From an uncultured virus (IMG/VR IMGVR_UViG_3300028646_000003) (lineage: Duplodnaviria; Heunggongvirae; Uroviricota; Caudoviricetes): DNA of 20,000 bases. The translations under genes were made by a program, and so were the position numbers. The notes below the pieces were generated by a model. It saw only the letters and a list, made by a program, of their open reading frames with translations, ran no database searches and was not told the DNA's origin. The DNA is taken from IMG/VR virus record IMGVR_UViG_3300028646_000003, positions 110,086-130,085 of that record; one strand, given 5' to 3'. Every line of letters begins with the position of its first letter. Within the stretch, counting starts at the first letter, position 1. This document shows, in pieces, positions 5,548-18,691 of this stretch.

Positions 5548-7442
5548 TTATATAGAATTGAAATTTACTGATGAAACAAATGTTGGTGCTGTTGACCAAT
5601 CAACTTGTGGTGCTTGCTTATTAACTATTCCGTCACGTCTAAGGTTTTTTAAATGCCAAGCTAACATTACCATTGTGTAAGCTCTATCATCATGCATTTT
5701 ACTCTTTTTATCAGGAGGCAGTTCATATTTATAATTTATATCATCACCTTGTCTTCTTATTGCAATTAATTCTTCTTTTGCGTTATCAATTTGCTTTAAT
5801 GCCAATTCTTCGTCCCAAGATAGATTGTATTGTTTATAATCTATTGATTTTACCTTTTTCTTTTCATTCGTATCCTCATCAATTTCTTCAATCTCTTTTC
5901 CTTCCTGTGGTAGACTTAAGTACCCTTTCATATCATAATTATCTGTAAATTCAATTAGTCCTAAATTTAATAATTCTACAAAATCATCATACATTTCTGT
6001 TTTATATTTTTTAGGTGATACTAATTTTAATTTTCCTACTGCATTCGGATAAGAATTTACATGTTCAGCACAGGCTTCTTTATCAATTAATCCCCTATGT
6101 TTATTTCCTTGTTCATCTTCCCAGTCGTCCATAAAATAATCTGCGATTATCGGACCACCACCTCCTGAACCAGCATCAACTAGTAAACAATCTATATTCT
6201 CATAATCAGCCTTGCCTTTTCCGTTATAATTTATTAGCATTTGTTTTATCTCTTTAATTTGTTCTGGCGTTCTCATTGGAGTTTTTTTCTTTTTCCCTAA
6301 ATCCACAAGACTTACACAGTTTTGAATTATTAATTTCCATCCAACTTGTTCATCATATATATATTCTCCTACTGATGTCGCTGAATTATCATAATCATGT
6401 GCTGGATCATATGAAATTGCAATGTGTCTTTTTATATTTCCTTCATTAATTAATAATGGTTTTCTAACTGATGAATTTTTCATAATTACTGCACGTTTTA
6501 TAGGTTGTTTATTTCCACCATCAGCATCAAAACGATTAAAATATTCTCGATTTGCTTTCTCTGAGTTTGACCTTATTTCATCATCAACTTTAGATTGTGA
6601 TAACAATGGTATATTTAATTTTTTACCTTTTAATGTAGCTCCTATTATAACCTCACAATTTAAGTCAGCTACAAAATGGTCTTTACTTCCTGCAAACATT
6701 AACTTTGCCCACTCTTTATATAATGTATAAAATGCAGAATCCGTACTACTAGCAGATGAACAAAACAATAATTGATTAGGAATATTCATCGGTATAGTTT
6801 CGGTGTTTATACCACCACCTAACTTAAACGACGAATCCTGTGTACAAAATGATTTTGTAACTGAAATATAGTTTTCACTTATGAAACCACTTTCATCATA
6901 CAAATTTAAATTTGATCTTTTCCCTCTAATATTATCTTCTTCCCCAGAAACAGTAGTAACTTGACTGTTGTTAAATAGCTTACATCTAAATCCTTGAGGA
7001 GAGTGAACAAATCCATCATGGTTAGCACTTGCAGAAACTTCTCCTAAAAATATATCTGTTAATCCACAAAAAGATTCTATTTGTTTTTTTGCTATTGACT
7101 CCATTTTAAGTTGTCAAAGAAAGGTATCTTGGCTTTGACTTGCGGTTAATGAAAGTATAAAGCTTTGAAAGTTTGGAAATAACATCATTTTTGTCATTAT
7201 AAATGGAGAACTTAAAGTTGATTTACTCAGCCTCCATTACGAGACATCAACCATAATGCAAATTGTTTGCTCCATGATTCTTGAAATGTATATTTTTGAT
7301 AATCCATAAGTTCAAGTCCCAACACTAATTCTGCGAACTTTACAGGATTTCTTCTTCCCCATACAAGTATTTCATTGTATTTTAAATAACCTTCTAACTT
7401 TTTTTGAGTCAAATTACCTTTATTTATAATTGTGATACCCAT
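5548..7442 (-). CDS. terL: Terminase large subunit, interrupted twice by short TGA-led inserts (7225-7229 and 7108-7116); reconstructed about 626 aa
   Basis: Segment 1 (7442-7230) ends LMSRNGG. Segment 2 (7224-7117, different frame) reads KSTLSSPFIMTKMMLFPNFQSFILSLTASQSQDTFL. Segment 3 (7107-5548) reads KMESIAKK...IRGKRSNLNLYDESGF (Walker B)...YDPAHDYDNS...VDAGSGGGG...HDDRAY (nuclease). Joining restores Walker A SRNGGKST. Confidence 0.9.
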
Positions 7443-9054: not shown

Positions 9055-10416
9055 TTAATTAGCAACTTCTAATTTTTTTAATATTTTATTACTTCTATAT
9101 TGTTCTTCTAACTGTTCGTCAAATGCTCCTTCAAAAAATCTAATTAAGAACTCATCAAACTGACTATGTGTATTTCTTCCATATCCATAATTTTGATGAA
9201 ATATTTTATGATATTCTTCTTTCATACATTTCCCTAATGGATACCTGTAATGAATTTCTGTACATTTACATATAATTTGTTTTATTTCCATATCTGTATA
9301 ATTACTTATAGTTTCATATATAGGTAATTTTAATTCTTCTAAAGTATCTCTAACTATATTATCAAAACTATATAAGTGATGAATATGATCAAACCTTTCC
9401 CCTGTAATAATACATTTGAAATTGCATTCTTTCATACTATCTAATTTCCATTGGTTAATATTTCTTCTTAATTCATTTTCTATATTACTAATTCCACCTT
9501 TATAATTAGGATTTAAACTACCAAATCTTGCAGAACCAAACATTGGATTATTTTCGCCTTTTGATTTTCCATTTTTAAGTCGAGTCTCACTTATTTTATT
9601 TCTCCATTCCTCAGTTTGTGCGTCATTTGTTGCTCTTAATTTACTTTCATCACTTTTATGTAAATTTAAACTATGAGCTTTATCCATAATTTGATTAATT
9701 GTTAAATGTGGGAAAAATTCATTCTTCATTTCATTATTGGTCATATCTGAATAATTATTTTGAATAATTATTACTTCTTCATCTTTCCATATGTATGAAT
9801 CAGATATTGCATAGTTCTCACCTTTACATTTTTTGCATACGTTTCTAAAACCATCACTACAAGTATTATCTTTTGGAAAATATAAAAATTCTAATGGTAA
9901 ATATTCATTACAGCACTTGCATAATTTGTATCTTTTGCCTTTAATGTCTTTATATTTTATTTTGTCATAATCTTCTACTACATTATTTATTTTATATAAT
10001 CCTAGTTTTTTACTCATATGTAATACAGATTTTTCAGTACGATTAACGCTAAGCAATGGAATTATCTCTTTGATTATTAATTTATTATAATTAGCTATAA
10101 TAATATCTTTATCCCTTTGACTCCATGTATCTTTCTCATTAGAACAATTTAAACACTTAGACAAATATCCATCTTTAGCTTTAGCATATAATCCAAATTC
10201 TGATACCTCTTTTTTAATATTACAACATTTGCAAACTTTATATCCATCTTTAGCATAGAACTTTTCTCTATATTTAATTTCTTGTTCTGTTTTTGCTTTA
10301 TTCCTACAAGCTTTACATGTATTTTCAAAACTTCCATTTTTGTTTTTATAAAAATTTTCCTCGTTTAATTCTTTTTCTTGTCCACATTTTTTACATTTTC
10401 TTATTTCCATAATCAA
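9055..10416 (-). CDS. Modular HNH (homing) endonuclease with Zn-finger repeats and NUMOD-like motifs
   Basis: Three CxxC...CxxC repeats, two W(S/K)xxxxxII-type repeats, TEEWRNKISETR/GENNPMFG/NPNYKGG motifs, C-terminal CIITG...HIHHLY...YHKIFHQNYG HNH-like core. Confidence 0.7.
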   Translation of the reverse strand: MIMEIRKCKKCGQEKELNEENFYKNKNGSFENTCKACRNKAKTEQEIKYREKFYAKDGYKVCKCCNIKKEVSEFGLYAKAKDGYLSKCLNCSNEKDTWSQRDKDIIIANYNKLIIKEIIPLLSVNRTEKSVLHMSKKLGLYKINNVVEDYDKIKYKDIKGKRYKLCKCCNEYLPLEFLYFPKDNTCSDGFRNVCKKCKGENYAISDSYIWKDEEVIIIQNNYSDMTNNEMKNEFFPHLTINQIMDKAHSLNLHKSDESKLRATNDAQTEEWRNKISETRLKNGKSKGENNPMFGSARFGSLNPNYKGGISNIENELRRNINQWKLDSMKECNFKCIITGERFDHIHHLYSFDNIVRDTLEELKLPIYETISNYTDMEIKQIICKCTEIHYRYPLGKCMKEEYHKIFHQNYGYGRNTHSQFDEFLIRFFEGAFDEQLEEQYRSNKILKKLEVAN

Positions 10417-13659: not shown

Positions 13660-14256
13660 TTATATAATTATTTCATCAGCAACATTTAATTTTAAAGCAG
13701 TAGCACCATCCATATAAAAGTCTTTATTACTCTTTGTATAGCTATCAAATTGTTCTTTAGTTATACCTGTTTTCTCAGTTATTAAATCAACTATTAACTT
13801 GTACCATCTATCGCATTGCTCTCTATCATTTACAGTATCTTGATATGTCTCAGTACCGTATCTAAATCTATTCCATTGGTGTCACATTAAATCACTTCTC
13901 TTATATACAAATCTTTTAGATCCACATATAAATATTTTGAATGCCATTGAATAAGCATAGCTTGTACAATATGTATGAATTTCTATCCCTTTATTAATGT
14001 AATATTCCATTAGGTCACAAAAATGCATTCCATCAACTAAACTTCCTCCTGGAGAAGCTATGATTAATTTTATTGGTGTTCTATCTTCCTTGCTCAATGA
14101 TAGTTGTTTAGTGGCAAGTTTCTTTAATTGTCTTGATAACATTATTATAAATTCAGTTGTAATTTCATCATCAATATATAGTGTATTATTATCTTTGTAA
14201 TCTACTAATTTGATTTCTTCTAGCAATAAATTCCGTTGTTGATATACTTCTCCCAT
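13660..14256 (-). CDS. ClpP-like protease with an in-frame TGA (13882-13884) just before the catalytic His; 198 codons if read through
   Basis: PIKLIIASPGGSL, AYSMAF (catalytic Ser), KRFVYKRSDLM*HQW, continuing in frame ...EKTGITKEQFDSYTKSNKDFYMDGATALKLNVADEIII-TAA, which matches the ClpP C-terminal D.YM...A...G..D.I pattern. Confidence 0.85.
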
Positions 14257-16096: not shown

Positions 16097-16186
16097 TGGA
16101 GGAGAGTGAGGGATTCTAACCCTCGATACGAATAAACGTATGCTGATTTAGCAAACCAGTGCATTCGGACACTCTGCCAACTCTCC
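16097..16186 (-). tRNA. tRNA-Ser(GCT), long variable arm, encoded CCA
   Basis: Acceptor GGAGAGT/ACTCTCC; anticodon arm CTGGT-TTGCTAA-ATCAG; variable arm ATACG-TTTATT-CGTAT; T arm GAGGG-TTAGAAT-CCCTC; 3' end TCCA. Confidence 0.92.
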
Positions 16187-17215: not shown

Positions 17216-18691
17216 TTATAAAATGAATTGTGAAGCAAATTTACTTACTCCTACAATTTTAGTTGTTTTATTTTTACTTTGTAGATATTCAGTTCCCTTT
17301 TCTTTCATTTCAATTTTTCCTTCTTCAGTACAATGGTGTATTAGAATCTTATTTGTGTTTATTTGACTCCAGTAGCTAAAAATTTCTTCTTGTTGAATGT
17401 GGCTCGAAAATGTTTTCTGAGTAAGAACATCACAACTTTTTATTAATGTACTTCCATCAATTTTAATAGGAGTGCCTATTGGTCTAGTAACTAATTCATG
17501 AGAAATTGAACCTTCAGCTCCGTAATATCCTACGAAACAAATTAGATCTCCTGTAACTCCCATAAAATTTTTAACATAGTCACAACTACGTGTTTTAGGT
17601 TGAACAAATCCACTAGAACTTATGTAAATTCCACATTCTCTTTTAGATAATATTCCCAAAGTACCTTTATATTCTTTATTATAACGAAAATTCTTCCAGT
17701 TTTTTATTCTCTCCCAGTCCTCAAATTCATCATATTTTAATATCTTGCTATAAGTATCACATATAGAATTAGTTAATCTTCCATCAATTGTTACTGGTAT
17801 TTCATTAAACCATTCTTCATCTTTAAAAAACGAATTTATTAAAAATTGTAACTCTTGGGTACGCCCGAAAGAAAAGGAAGGAAAAAATACTCGGTGTCCA
17901 CTTTTTAAATATTTAGTTAAAGTTTCTTTTAGTTCATTTCTTTCTTTTTCTACTAAATTTTTATCAAAGCACTTTTCAGAGTTTGAATAAGTTGCCTCAA
18001 AAACGTACATTGAAGCCTTAGGAATTATATCTCTTTTCTTTACAAATGGTTTATATTTTAAATTGTAATCTGATCCCAAATCGCTTGTGTAAACTAAGGA
18101 TTTTATATTATTGTTAGGTAGTCTAAAAGTAAGTTTCAATTGAGTACCACCTAATACATGTCCAGAATTATAAAATTCATAACTTAACCAATCATCAAAT
18201 TTATATACTTGATGTGTTTCAACTGTTTTTACCTTCTCTAACATCTTATACATATCTAATTCAGTATATAAGTTTTTAGGTCTTTTCCCTTTTGCTTTTA
18301 AACCTTTTATTAAACAATCATGTAAATACACACTATCTTTTAATAATTCTTTAGATATCATTAAACATTCTTCTGTTGTAATTATTTCACCTTTGAATAT
18401 ATCTTGTCCAAATATAGGTGTGTTCCCAATATGGTCTACTCAGACGTGGGAGTGCATTAAAAACACTCCCGAAATACCTCCTACTGGAATATTTTCAACC
18501 ATTTTTTTATTCATTGAATATTCTATCTCTGGTTTTGATTCTCCTTGTATCATGCCACATTCTAGACAAACGCATTTATGTTTGTCATTTCCTATAGGAT
18601 AGCTAATTAATAAAGCAGATCCACAAATATCGTCCCTACTTCCACCGACAAAACTTAAAATTATATCATTATCCTTATTCTTTTTGCTCAT
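17216..18691 (-). CDS. Metallo-beta-lactamase / beta-CASP (CPSF/RNase J-like) hydrolase, interrupted by a 6-nt TGA-led insert in HxHxDH; reconstructed about 489 aa
   Basis: N-terminus LSFVGGSRDDICGSALL, LECGMIQ, FLMHSHV*VDHIG, continuing in frame through TPIFGQ...EECL into the 381-aa ORF with SGHVLG, YTSDLG, EATY, PSFSFGRTQE, SSGF, FSSHI, ILIHH. Confidence 0.9.

What the first reader, a model, noticed from the sequence alone, without database searches (positions are those of the whole stretch)
7216..7252. TerL site 1: 5-nt frame-breaking insert in Walker A, bulged out of a two-helix hairpin
SRNGG|KST is split by TGAGT. Neither readthrough (next stop 4 codons later) nor a -1 shift (gives G-L-S-K) rebuilds GK[ST]; only a 5-nt skip does. 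The mRNA can fold as GGTTGAT-GTCTC-gtaatg-GAGGC-[TGAGTAA]-ATCAACT, two stacked helices with the insert looped out. An SD-like GGAGG sits directly before the stop. The landing triplet would be AGT for a GGC take-off (first-position mismatch), so this site fits hopping less well and fits RNA-level excision or an element scar equally. It shares CTGAGTA with the MBL site. Without repair, the annotated 518-aa ORF lacks Walker A and could not power packaging.
Basis: partly seen in the sequence, partly recalled or inferred. Interest (0 to 1): 0.82.

Follow-up and report, generated by a model that had tools for sequence, protein, structure and literature searches.

The report
Five-base gap in phage terminase
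The only DNA-packaging motor gene of this large phage has five extra bases, beginning with a stop codon, inside its ATP-binding loop, and comparison with relatives suggests that ribosomes hop over them, a very rare way of reading a gene.

Summary
On the minus strand, TGAGT (7229-7225) sits between the Gly and Lys codons of the terminase Walker A motif (SRNGG|KST). The same five bases occur in 13 independent loci and in contigs from four other sequencing runs, one of them an RNA library. Close relatives lack them. It is not an assembly error, an alternative genetic code or an obvious pseudogene.

The best reading is a programmed ribosomal hop of +5 over UGA, with the glycine tRNA moving from GGC to AGU. 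Two diverged relatives have longer gaps at exactly this junction: GGC-[14 nt]-GGT and GGA-[17 nt]-GGA. Both are stop-led, blocked in the target frame, and have take-off and landing codons that change together. The window's gap looks like the 14-nt form minus 9 nt.

The same gene has a second gap (CTT TGA CAA CTT). The MBL nuclease gene has GTC TGA GTA inside HxHxDH. That gap is kept in a 95%-identical relative whose differences are 101 synonymous to 23 nonsynonymous codons.

Across 87 distinct terminase sequences I read 21 short gap alleles at 9 positions. None begins with TAA.

Translation across the gap was not shown directly. This is a new variant of translational bypassing.

The parts
7227..7442 (-). 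Terminase large subunit, N-terminal piece: 71 codons ending ...LWLMSRNGG, then TGA.
   Evidence: It aligns with residues 1-71 of full-length homologs.
7231..7235 (-). Shine-Dalgarno-like GGAGG formed by the Gly-Gly codons, overlapping the take-off codon.
   Evidence: It is also present in gap-free relatives L009 and L010, so it is not specific to gap alleles.
7230..7232 (-). Take-off codon GGC, the second Gly of Walker A.
   Evidence: It is identical to the take-off codon of L188.
7225..7229 (-). The 5-nt coding gap TGAGT. The stop TGA is 7229-7227. The putative landing triplet AGT is 7227-7225.
7222..7224 (-). Resume codon AAA, the Lys of GK[ST].
7216..7252 (-).
   Evidence: It is the minimum-energy fold, but z = -1.54 and 16 of 200 shuffles fold as well.
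7202..7238 (-). Alternative hairpin. The 5' arm holds AUGGAGGCUGAGU, the loop holds the resume codon, and the 3' arm is in the S-P-F codons.
   Evidence: z = -2.63 (3 of 200 shuffles). An analogous fold in L188 has z = -2.94 and in L037 z = -1.33. Suggestive only.
7117..7224 (-). Terminase middle piece, KSTLSSPF...QSQDTFL, 36 codons.
7108..7116 (-). Second coding gap, TGA CAA CTT (9 nt). Take-off CTT is 7119-7117, landing CTT is 7110-7108, and the resume codon AAA is 7107-7105.
   Evidence: Homologs read QDTF-[L/M/I]-KME with 3 fewer residues. DNA alignment. L188 has a 4-nt gap at the same spot.
5548..7107 (-). Terminase C-terminal piece. The annotated 518-aa ORF starts at ATG 7104.
   Evidence: Fold matches.
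18437..18442 (-). Sister site in the MBL/beta-CASP nuclease gene (18691..17216): the 6-nt in-frame gap TGA GTA between GTC (18445-18443) and GAC, inside HxHxDH.
13882..13884 (-). In-frame TGA in the ClpP-like head-maturation protease gene (14256..13660), where a relative has TGC (Cys). Not a hop design. Unexplained.

Best explanation
The 5 nt are a very short coding gap that begins with a stop codon, and translating ribosomes bypass it.

Proposed mechanism:
1. The ribosome decodes ...AAT GGA GGC, and UGA enters the A site.
2. UGA is read by only one release factor (established knowledge), so termination is slow.
3. The peptidyl-tRNA(Gly) leaves GGC.
4. The mRNA moves 5 nt.
5. The tRNA re-pairs with AGU through codon positions 2 and 3.
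6. Decoding resumes at AAA, giving SRNGG-KSTL with an intact Walker A.

A second hop, CUU to CUU (+9), 36 codons later, completes a full-length terminase of about 627 residues.

What is shown: the gap is real and stable. It lies where relatives have none. Relatives have homologous, longer gaps at the same junction that can only be crossed by bypassing. Sister gaps are kept under purifying selection.

What is inferred: that ribosomes, not RNA processing, cross the gap; that the step is +5 and not a -1 or +2 shift; and its efficiency.

Why the gaps exist is speculative. They sit in the most conserved catalytic motifs of a genome rich in homing endonucleases. They may spoil homing-endonuclease or intein target sites, as proposed for T4 gene 60, or throttle late-gene expression.
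For: The gap is real and stable.
- The identical gap occurs in 13 of 133 terminase loci from separate assemblies.
- It also occurs in contigs from 4 other runs, from peat, wastewater and aquatic samples.
- Two of those contigs are variant alleles with both gaps. They differ from the window at 21 codons, 20 of them synonymous.

Relatives have longer gaps at the same G|K junction.
- L188 reads GGC [TGA CAT AAT AC GGT] AAA. L037 reads GGA [TGA CTT AAT GTT AA GGA] AAA.
- Gap lengths of 17, 14 and 5 nt are all 2 mod 3.
- Both longer gaps contain TAA in the target frame, so a simple shift at the stop cannot work.
- Take-off and landing codons change together: GGC/GGT versus GGA/GGA.
- L188 and L037 are 82% identical in protein downstream of the gap, with pN 0.114 and pS 0.707.
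- In alignment A8 the window's GT aligns with the GT of L188's GGT.

The family-wide pattern fits tRNA re-pairing.
- I read 21 gap alleles at 9 terminase positions.
- 12 have a landing triplet in the same codon box as the take-off codon.
- 7 pair at positions 2 and 3 only. These include an independent +5 gap, CTT TGA TT GAC.
- 13 alleles begin with TGA, 6 with TAG, 0 with TAA and 2 with sense codons. TAA ends 106 of 144 ORFs in this genome.
- At residue 44 the fourth base covaries with the take-off codon: GAA/TGAG, GAG/TGAA, GAT/TGAC.

The MBL sister gap behaves like a functional site.
- GTC TGA GTA restores the family motif MHSHVDH.
- It is kept in L027, which differs at 101 synonymous and 23 nonsynonymous codons (91 to 19 downstream of the gap).
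- It is kept in L068, whose flanks are only about 35% identical in DNA.

Other support.
- A PHROGs scan of 84 ORFs of 90 aa or more outside the window, plus 10 window proteins, found no second terminase and no RNA ligase (five ORFs that span locus boundaries were not scanned).
- A metatranscriptome contig retains the 5 nt.
- Precedents in print are the phiHau3 terminase (PMC10732093, passages read) and synthetic stop-hops and T4 gene 60 (PMC5009743, passages read).
Against: - No protein or ribosome data exist for this phage, so translation across the gap is inferred.
- The landing triplet AGU matches the glycine tRNA at only 2 of 3 positions. The window allele could be a recently damaged derivative of an L188-like gap, with the 9-nt loss removing the first G of the landing codon.
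- A -1 or +2 shift into the same frame is not excluded here, because the target frame is open from 7236.
- Presence and absence of the gap do not follow the tree. The window's closest relatives (88-97% protein identity) lack it, and gap-free L009 is as close to L188 and L037 as they are to each other. Selection on the downstream ORF may therefore partly predate the gap or arrive by recombination.
- Two terminase alleles fit no re-pairing rule: L036 GAC[TGAGTC]TAC and L188 CTG[CGGT]AAG.
- No stimulatory RNA structure is statistically secure.
- The RNA-library contig may derive from carried-over DNA, and contigs drop rare variants.
- Two hops in one gene imply a low yield.
Confidence: 0.6

Rival explanations
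1. Ribosomal frameshifting instead of a hop. At the UGA-stalled ribosome the frame moves -1 or +2, and the gap bases are translated. The product is SRNGG-LS-KST or SRNGG-S-KST.
For: The target frame is open from 7236. A Shine-Dalgarno-like GGAGG next to a stop recalls the RF2 frameshift cassette (recalled, not tested). The phage's only tRNA is tRNA-Ser(GCU), which reads AGU.
Against: There is no slippery heptamer. The product would put 1-2 residues between G and K of a P-loop that is contiguous in all 13 aligned homologs. The homologous gaps in L188 and L037 have TAA in the target frame, so they cannot be crossed this way.
Confidence: 0.13
2. The terminase is inactivated. The 5-nt and 9-nt inserts are disabling lesions in a decaying or helper-dependent element.
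For: There are two interruptions in one essential gene. A third gene, the ClpP-like protease, has a plain TGC-to-TGA change. The landing codon is imperfect. The nearest relatives lack the inserts.
Against: The allele is widespread and has variants whose differences are 20 of 21 synonymous. Apart from the two gaps, the roughly 627 codons contain no other stop or shift. A PHROGs scan of 84 ORFs outside the window plus 10 window proteins found no other terminase. Random lesions would not begin with TGA or TAG, avoid TAA, and carry matching flanking codons in 12 of 21 alleles. The MBL gap is conserved under purifying selection.
Confidence: 0.1
3. The 5 nt are removed from, or edited in, the mRNA before translation.
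For: A 5-nt removal at any of three registers restores GG[CT] AAA. The region can fold with the insert bulged out.
Against: An RNA-library contig spans the site with 0 gaps and no joint was reported. This evidence is weak. The PHROGs scan found no RNA ligase. Gaps of 4 to 17 nt share no splice-like boundary, but they do share codon matching, which is what tRNA re-pairing predicts. The fold is not better than chance.
Confidence: 0.05
4. The site reflects an assembly or sequencing artefact, or an alternative genetic code in which TGA is a sense codon.
For: Under code 4 several split ORFs merge.
Against: Independent assemblies and runs agree. Site 1 needs a frame change, not a sense reading. TGA ends ordinary genes that are followed by a ribosome-binding site and ATG. 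Reading TGA as a residue would lengthen the HxHxDH motif by 2 residues relative to homologs.
Confidence: 0.02

Closest known systems
Candidate translational bypassing in the large terminase of Streptomyces phage phiHau3 (PMC10732093; passages read)
   Same: The gene is a phage large terminase with two short frame-breaking inserts. The sequences flanking each insert are adjacent in relatives. A slow-to-decode codon begins each gap. The reported junction peptide GWG|KDPLL looks like the same P-loop G|K position (my reading of the peptide). A 5' stem-loop and a Shine-Dalgarno-like element were proposed as stimulators.
   Different: The phiHau3 gaps are 10 nt and begin with the rare sense codon UUA, which depends on the bldA tRNA. 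Here the gaps are 5 and 9 nt and begin with the stop UGA. The terminase family and host phylum differ. In this family the gaps occur at 9 positions, and a second gene (MBL) also has one.
Phage T4 gene 60 50-nt bypass (PMC5009743 passages; 10.1101/2022.08.31.505936 abstract)
   Same: A take-off Gly codon is followed directly by a stop, and the landing codon matches (L037: GGA UGA ... GGA). The insert lies in an essential enzyme gene. The genome is rich in homing endonucleases. The T4 insert is thought to protect against a homing nuclease.
   Different: The T4 gap is 50 nt, against 5 to 17 nt here. The T4 nascent-peptide signal and take-off stem-loop are defined experimentally, and nothing comparable is shown here. 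The window's landing triplet is not fully matched.
Synthetic 'stop-hops' in E. coli (Weiss et al. 1987, as described in PMC5009743)
   Same: Matched codons flank a stop, so 9 nt specify one residue. GTC TGA GTA in the MBL gene and CAG TGA CAA in L042 have exactly this design. +5 and +6 events are named in that paper's title.
   Different: Those were engineered, low-efficiency events. The 2016 review states that no natural in-frame stop-hop was known. I did not read the original 1987 paper.
Mitochondrial bypass elements ('byps') of Magnusiomyces (cited in PMC5009743 and PMC10732093; originals not read)
   Same: Many short non-coding inserts within conserved genes are corrected during translation, and the elements appear mobile.
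   Different: Those elements are longer, occur in mitochondria, and have a different sequence character (recalled).
Inteins with LAGLIDADG endonucleases in the terminase P-loop
   Same: They occupy the same hotspot. Homologs carry an intein between K and S of GK|ST, for example ..NGGK|ALALDT.. and ..VTHN|STL. That is 3 nt from this gap.
   Different: Inteins are in-frame, hundreds of codons long, and are removed from the protein. This insert is 5 nt and breaks the frame.

Membership tests
Programmed translational bypassing (coding gap) | Two ORF pieces together encode one conserved protein, and the intervening bases have no counterpart in homologs. | tested here: met
   SRNGG and KST are adjacent in all 13 aligned homologs.
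Programmed translational bypassing (coding gap) | The take-off codon is followed at once by a stop or other slow-to-decode codon. | tested here: met
   GGC is followed by TGA. 19 of 21 family alleles begin with TGA or TAG and none with TAA.
Programmed translational bypassing (coding gap) | The landing codon matches the take-off codon. | tested here: not met
   At this site GGC would land on AGT, which matches at positions 2 and 3 only. The feature is met at the same junction in L188 (GGC/GGT) and L037 (GGA/GGA).
Programmed translational bypassing (coding gap) | Stimulatory signals are present: an mRNA stem-loop at take-off, a Shine-Dalgarno-like element, or a nascent peptide. | tested here: inconclusive
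   GGAGG is present but is also found in gap-free relatives. Hairpin z-scores are -1.54, -2.63, -2.94 and -1.33.
Programmed translational bypassing (coding gap) | A single polypeptide spanning the gap is made. | not testable with these tools
   No proteomic or reporter data are available.
Programmed -1 or +1 ribosomal frameshift | A slippery site allows tRNA re-pairing in the new overlapping frame, and the product is colinear with the mRNA. | tested here: not met
   There is no X XXY YYZ heptamer. The +1 frame hits TAA at once. The -1 product breaks GK[ST].
Large terminase subunit (TerL) | An N-terminal ATPase with Walker A and B motifs, plus a C-terminal RNase H-like nuclease fold. | tested here: met
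   SRNGGKST and LNLYDE motifs. Foldseek of the model of homolog P0007 gives large terminases as top hits: 6m5r at 7.4e-10, T4 gp17 3cpe at 1.7e-8, then D6E, HK97 and Sf6. The model is of low confidence (pLDDT 58.6). Pfam, PHROGs and PDB sequence searches found nothing.
Stop-codon-reassigned genetic code (tables 4 or 25) | TGA is read as a residue throughout and is not used as a terminator. | tested here: not met
   TGA ends ordinary genes that are followed by a ribosome-binding site and ATG. Site 1 needs a frame change. Reading TGA as a residue would lengthen HxHxDH relative to homologs.
Intein or self-splicing intron | An element of hundreds of bases with splicing motifs or a ribozyme fold. 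| tested here: not met
   The insert is 5 nt. No Rfam intron family was hit in the window.

The most novel reading that the evidence does not exclude
This clade of large Firmicute phages and prophages uses ultra-short coding gaps of 4 to 17 nt, led by a stop codon, as a routine genome feature. The gaps sit in the catalytic motifs of essential genes: the terminase Walker A and Walker B regions, and MBL HxHxDH. Ribosomes cross them by stop-hopping. These would be the first natural in-frame stop-hops, and the +5 hops would need only two re-paired bases. The gaps behave as small mobile or convertible cassettes that spoil homing-endonuclease and intein target sites, which would generalise the T4 gene 60/MobA idea to a whole gene family.
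Probability: 0.4. Interest if true: 0.9.

Novelty: new variant of a known kind. Interest (0 to 1): 0.8.

Why it matters
Efficient natural bypassing is known from very few systems: T4 gene 60 and its homologs, yeast mitochondria, and a candidate in phiHau3. The passages I read in the 2016 review (PMC5009743) say that shorter natural counterparts had long been presumed and that no natural in-frame stop-hop was known.

This site offers a series of natural alleles at one junction, with gaps of 5, 14 and 17 nt, plus about 20 other alleles in the same gene family. Together they amount to a ready-made mutational series. They can be used to test how far a peptidyl-tRNA can move, how much re-pairing it needs, and why UGA and UAG serve but UAA does not.

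There is also a practical consequence. Gene callers split these terminase and nuclease genes, and many database entries start just after the gaps. As a result, essential phage genes are mis-annotated as truncated or missing.

If the link to homing endonucleases holds, it would show a general route by which selfish-element conflict creates recoding sites.

Tried and rejected
- **Terminase family searches.** Pfam and PHROGs scans of the terminase pieces gave 0 families. A PDB sequence-profile search with A5 gave no terminase (best E = 0.36). A blastn search of the phage collection gave no match. Identity had to come from source names and a fold search.
- **Code 4 or TGA as a sense codon.** Rejected.
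- **A look-alike site elsewhere.** ATT TGA CAA ATT at genome position 41849 is an ordinary gene end followed by GAAGGAG and ATG. I dropped it.
- **The 3774/3752 junction.** Two in-frame TGA codons there are an ordinary gene boundary.
- **CTGAGTA as a shared element signature.** Not enriched.
Not better than shuffles. Folds at terminase site 2 and at the MBL site have z-scores of -0.05, -0.20 and -0.67.
- **The neighbouring HNH-like ORF (9055-10416) as a gene 60/MobA-style partner.** It has a homolog next to the terminase gene in the record that holds L023 and only weak matches in the record that holds L007. The query found nothing in the records that hold L188 and L042. L037 is not held and was not searched. 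There is no clear correlation with the gaps.
- **Group I introns.** Rfam at gathering thresholds found none in the window, L017, or the split polA and thyA regions. The roughly 200-nt and 320-nt inserts in the L017-type terminase remain uncharacterised.
- **RNA runs.** They cover only parts of the stretch: X22 covers 10 of 30 bins and X19 covers 18 of 30. They say nothing on expression level or on site 2.
- **Literature.** Searches found no paper that describes these gaps.
- **Structure model.** The AlphaFold model of the ATPase domain is poor, with pLDDT below 50 for residues 160-308. No structural statement about the P-loop is made.
Full report
**What is at the site.** All genes of the window lie on the minus strand, and G+C content is about 27%. 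A 71-codon ORF (7442..7227) ends ...LWLMSRNGG and then TGA. The sequence is AAT GGA GGC TGA GTA AAT CAA CTT TAA. The frame that starts at AAA 7224-7222 reads KSTLSSPFIMTK... It is in phase with the annotated 518-aa ORF (7104..5548), apart from one more in-frame TGA at 7116-7114. The gene is therefore interrupted twice.

A search for homologs returned 2089 proteins at E <= 0.001. The full-length ones have about 610-630 residues, and sources name some of them 'terminase'. In alignment A1, all 13 homologs read G-K-[ST]-T without any extra residue where the window has TGAGT. They read QDTF-[L/M/I]-KME where the window has F-L-*-Q-L-K. Site 1 is thus an exact 5-nt insert between the G and K codons of Walker A. 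Site 2 is a 9-nt insert, CTT [TGA CAA CTT] AAA.

**Is the gene a terminase?** Pfam, PHROGs and a PDB sequence-profile search gave nothing. An AlphaFold model of homolog P0007 is poor overall (pLDDT 58.6). Its Foldseek matches are nevertheless large terminases: 6m5r at 7.4e-10, T4 gp17 at 1.7e-8, then D6E, HK97 and Sf6. With the Walker A and B motifs and the source names, I accept the terminase assignment.

**The insert is real.** The window is the last 20 kb of a single 130,085-bp virus record.
- Six independent IMG/VR assemblies carry both inserts letter for letter, and 8 relatives lack both.
- Over all terminase loci fetched, the window-type allele occurs in 13 of 133.
- The stretch is held by 18 peat-metagenome runs.
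- DNA contigs from two runs not flagged as the possible source span both sites with 0 gaps. Their 23 listed differences change 21 codons, 20 of them synonymously.
- A 151-nt contig from a wastewater metatranscriptome library covers 7189-7339 with 0 gaps. Its one listed change (3 differences in all) is synonymous.
- A contig from an aquatic run does the same.
- Contigs cannot exclude rare variants, and the RNA library may contain DNA.

**It is not another genetic code.** Reading TGA as a sense codon merges some ORFs, but site 1 still needs a frame change. TGA ends ordinary genes that are followed by a ribosome-binding site and ATG, including ATGA overlaps. The genome has a single tRNA, Ser(GCU).

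**The same junction in relatives.** Mapping a full-length homolog onto all loci by tblastn exposed frame breaks.
- Locus L188 is about 65% identical in protein to the window and comes from a 96.5-kb contig. It reads AAT GGA GGC [TGA CAT AAT AC GGT] AAA AGT.
- Locus L037 is also about 65% identical. It reads AAT GGA GGA [TGA CTT AAT GTT AA GGA] AAA AGT.
- Both gaps begin with TGA directly after the second Gly codon.
- Both end with a Gly codon that the take-off tRNA can read: GGC to GGT, and GGA to GGA.
- Both contain TAA in the target frame, so a simple shift at the stop cannot cross them.
- The two gaps share TGAC.TAAT, and the lengths 17, 14 and 5 are all 2 mod 3.
- MAFFT aligns the window's GT with the GT of L188's GGT. 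The window gap equals the L188 gap minus 9 nt.
- L188 and L037 are 82% identical in protein downstream of the gap, with pN 0.114 and pS 0.707.
- Protein cluster P0023 (109 members) starts just after Walker A and matches the L037 type.

One caveat applies. Gap-free L009 is as close to L188 and to L037 as they are to each other, and the window's nearest relatives lack the gap. Gaps are therefore gained, lost or converted often.

**A family-wide pattern.** Of 133 terminase loci, 87 are distinct sequences, and 25 of those have at least one interruption. Two of the 25 are inteins, and one has TAA in place of a Tyr codon. From I read 21 short gap alleles at 9 positions:

| Position | Alleles |
|---|---|
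| Residue 31 | CGA[ACGA]AAT; CGA[TAGT]AAA; CGT[TAGC]AAG; CGA[TAGC]AAG; CGT[TAGC]AAA; CGA[TAGA]AAA; CGC[TAG GTT AAC TAG CGT]AGA |
| Residue 41 | CTG[TGAG CTA]GGA |
| Residue 44 | GAA[TGAG]TTA; GAG[TGAA]TTC; GAT[TGAC]TTT |
| Residue 46 | CTT[TGATT]GAC |
| Residue 47 | GAC[TGAGTC]TAC |
| Residue 49 | CAG[TGA CAA]AAG |
| Residue 71 | the three alleles described above |
| Residue 107 | the window's 9-nt gap; CTG[CGGT]AAG |
| Residue 182 | CTT[TGA TGA AAG CTT]TCT; CTT[TGA CGA AGG CTT]TCT |

- Twelve alleles have a landing triplet in the same codon box as the take-off codon. By my arithmetic, chance would give about 1 in 16.
- Seven pair only at positions 2 and 3, with the A of the stop as the first base. 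This class holds the window's site 1, the independent +5 gap CTT TGA TT, and the CGN TAG N series. In that series the fourth base is T, C or A and never G, as expected if an inosine-bearing tRNA(Arg) re-pairs. That last point is my inference.
- Two alleles fit no rule.
- Thirteen begin with TGA, six with TAG, two with sense codons and none with TAA. TAA ends 106 of 144 predicted ORFs in this genome. UGA and UAG are each read by only one release factor (established knowledge), which fits a need for slow termination.
- Some gap-bearing alleles are in cultured isolates: Clostridium cuniculi and several Paenibacillus species.

**The MBL sister site.** The beta-CASP/MBL nuclease gene (18691..17216) reads CAC TCC CAC GTC TGA GTA GAC CAT. 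HMMER aligns the stop to the second His without a gap. Family members, however, read VF[LV]MHSH[VI]DH, so the window has 6 extra bases and a Val-to-Val hop restores the motif.
- The gap is identical in L027. That relative differs from the window at 124 codons, 101 of them synonymously; downstream of the gap the split is 91 to 19.
- The same 15 nt occur in L068. Its flanks are about 35% identical in DNA to the window's, and its His and Ser codons differ synonymously.
- Of 120 listed homologs, 105 have H.H.DH. Five of the other 15 are ORF calls that start just before [VI]DH. This suggests other gaps at that spot.

This is the best evidence that such gaps are compatible with function.

**Mechanism proposed for site 1.** With GGC in the P site and UGA in the A site, the peptidyl-tRNA(Gly) detaches, the mRNA advances 5 nt, the tRNA re-pairs with AGU at two positions, and AAA is decoded. 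The gap is shown. The hop is inferred.

GGAGG overlaps the take-off codon, but it is also present in gap-free L009 and L010. A hairpin that encloses the take-off codon, the gap and the resume codon scores z = -2.63 in the window, -2.94 in L188 and -1.33 in L037.

**Why the gaps might exist.** The genome looks like a large siphovirus-type phage. At least 9 of 84 scanned ORFs match HNH or homing-endonuclease families. The polA and thyA genes are split. No second terminase and no RNA ligase was found among the scanned ORFs. Homologs carry LAGLIDADG inteins between K and S of the same P-loop, 3 nt from this gap. By analogy with T4 gene 60 and MobA (PMC5009743, passages read), the gaps may spoil nuclease target sites. 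This was not tested. A check of the neighbouring HNH-like gene was inconclusive.

**Known parallels.** Streptomyces phage phiHau3 has two 10-nt UUA-led gaps in its terminase, with mass-spectrometric support in E. coli (PMC10732093, passages read). Synthetic stop-hops and the statement that no natural in-frame stop-hop was known are in PMC5009743 (passages read). My three literature searches found no description of the present gaps. The scan has therefore seen this phenomenon before on other DNA.

**Verdict.** The rivals are frameshifting (0.13), inactivation (0.10), RNA-level removal (0.05) and artefact or alternative code (0.02).

Noticed in passing
window 13882-13884 (-), in gene 14256..13660: The ClpP-like head-maturation protease gene has an in-frame TGA (ATG TGA CAC) just before the HQ of its catalytic region. 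An 87%-identical relative has TGC, encoding Cys. There is no matching codon nearby, so this is not a hop design. It could be readthrough, a Cys- or Sec-like reading, or a dead gene.
   Followed up: partly
window 7108-7116 (-): The terminase gene has a second gap, CTT [TGA CAA CTT] AAA. It is in frame, 9 nt long and has identical take-off and landing codons. L188 has a different 4-nt gap (CGGT) at the same spot.
   Followed up: yes
window 18437-18442 (-); L027, L064, L068: The MBL/beta-CASP nuclease gene has GTC TGA GTA inside HxHxDH. This is a textbook stop-hop design. It is conserved in relatives that are 95% and about 40% identical in protein.
   Followed up: yes
window 16097-16186 (-): The genome's only tRNA is tRNA-Ser(GCU), which reads AGU and AGC. 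AGU is the triplet at the putative landing position of site 1. This may be a coincidence.
   Followed up: no
L209 715-950 (+) and ORF 970-2220 (genome coordinates): A HEARO RNA (RF02033, 90.1 bits) lies directly upstream of a 416-aa HNH-endonuclease ORF. This is the arrangement of an IscB-type RNA-guided nuclease (the name is recalled), here inside a phage genome.
   Followed up: no
L209 12815-17439 and L211 4239-6315 (genome 12815-17439 and 44239-46315): The DNA polymerase and thymidylate synthase genes are each split into two ORFs with an endonuclease ORF between them. Rfam found no group I intron at gathering threshold.
   Followed up: partly
L017-L023, L041 (terminase, about 85% identical): This terminase allele has a 4-nt tandem duplication gap, CGA[ACGA]AAT, with no stop codon. 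It also has two larger inserts of about 200 and 320 nt, at residues ~203 and ~342. The nature of the larger inserts is unknown.
   Followed up: partly
L006/L129 versus L007: One variant keeps the GAA TGAG gap but also has a 4-nt deletion about 30 nt downstream. This puts the stop back in frame. It is either a compensating indel or an assembly difference.
   Followed up: no
L159/L160 (terminase, about 50% identical): TAA replaces the Tyr codon in the conserved HDDRAY nuclease motif.
   Followed up: no
window 9055-10416 (-): A 453-aa ORF with HNH/endonuclease VII and Lar-like matches lies two genes upstream of the terminase gene. A 60%-identical homolog lies directly next to the terminase gene in the record that holds L023.
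   Followed up: partly
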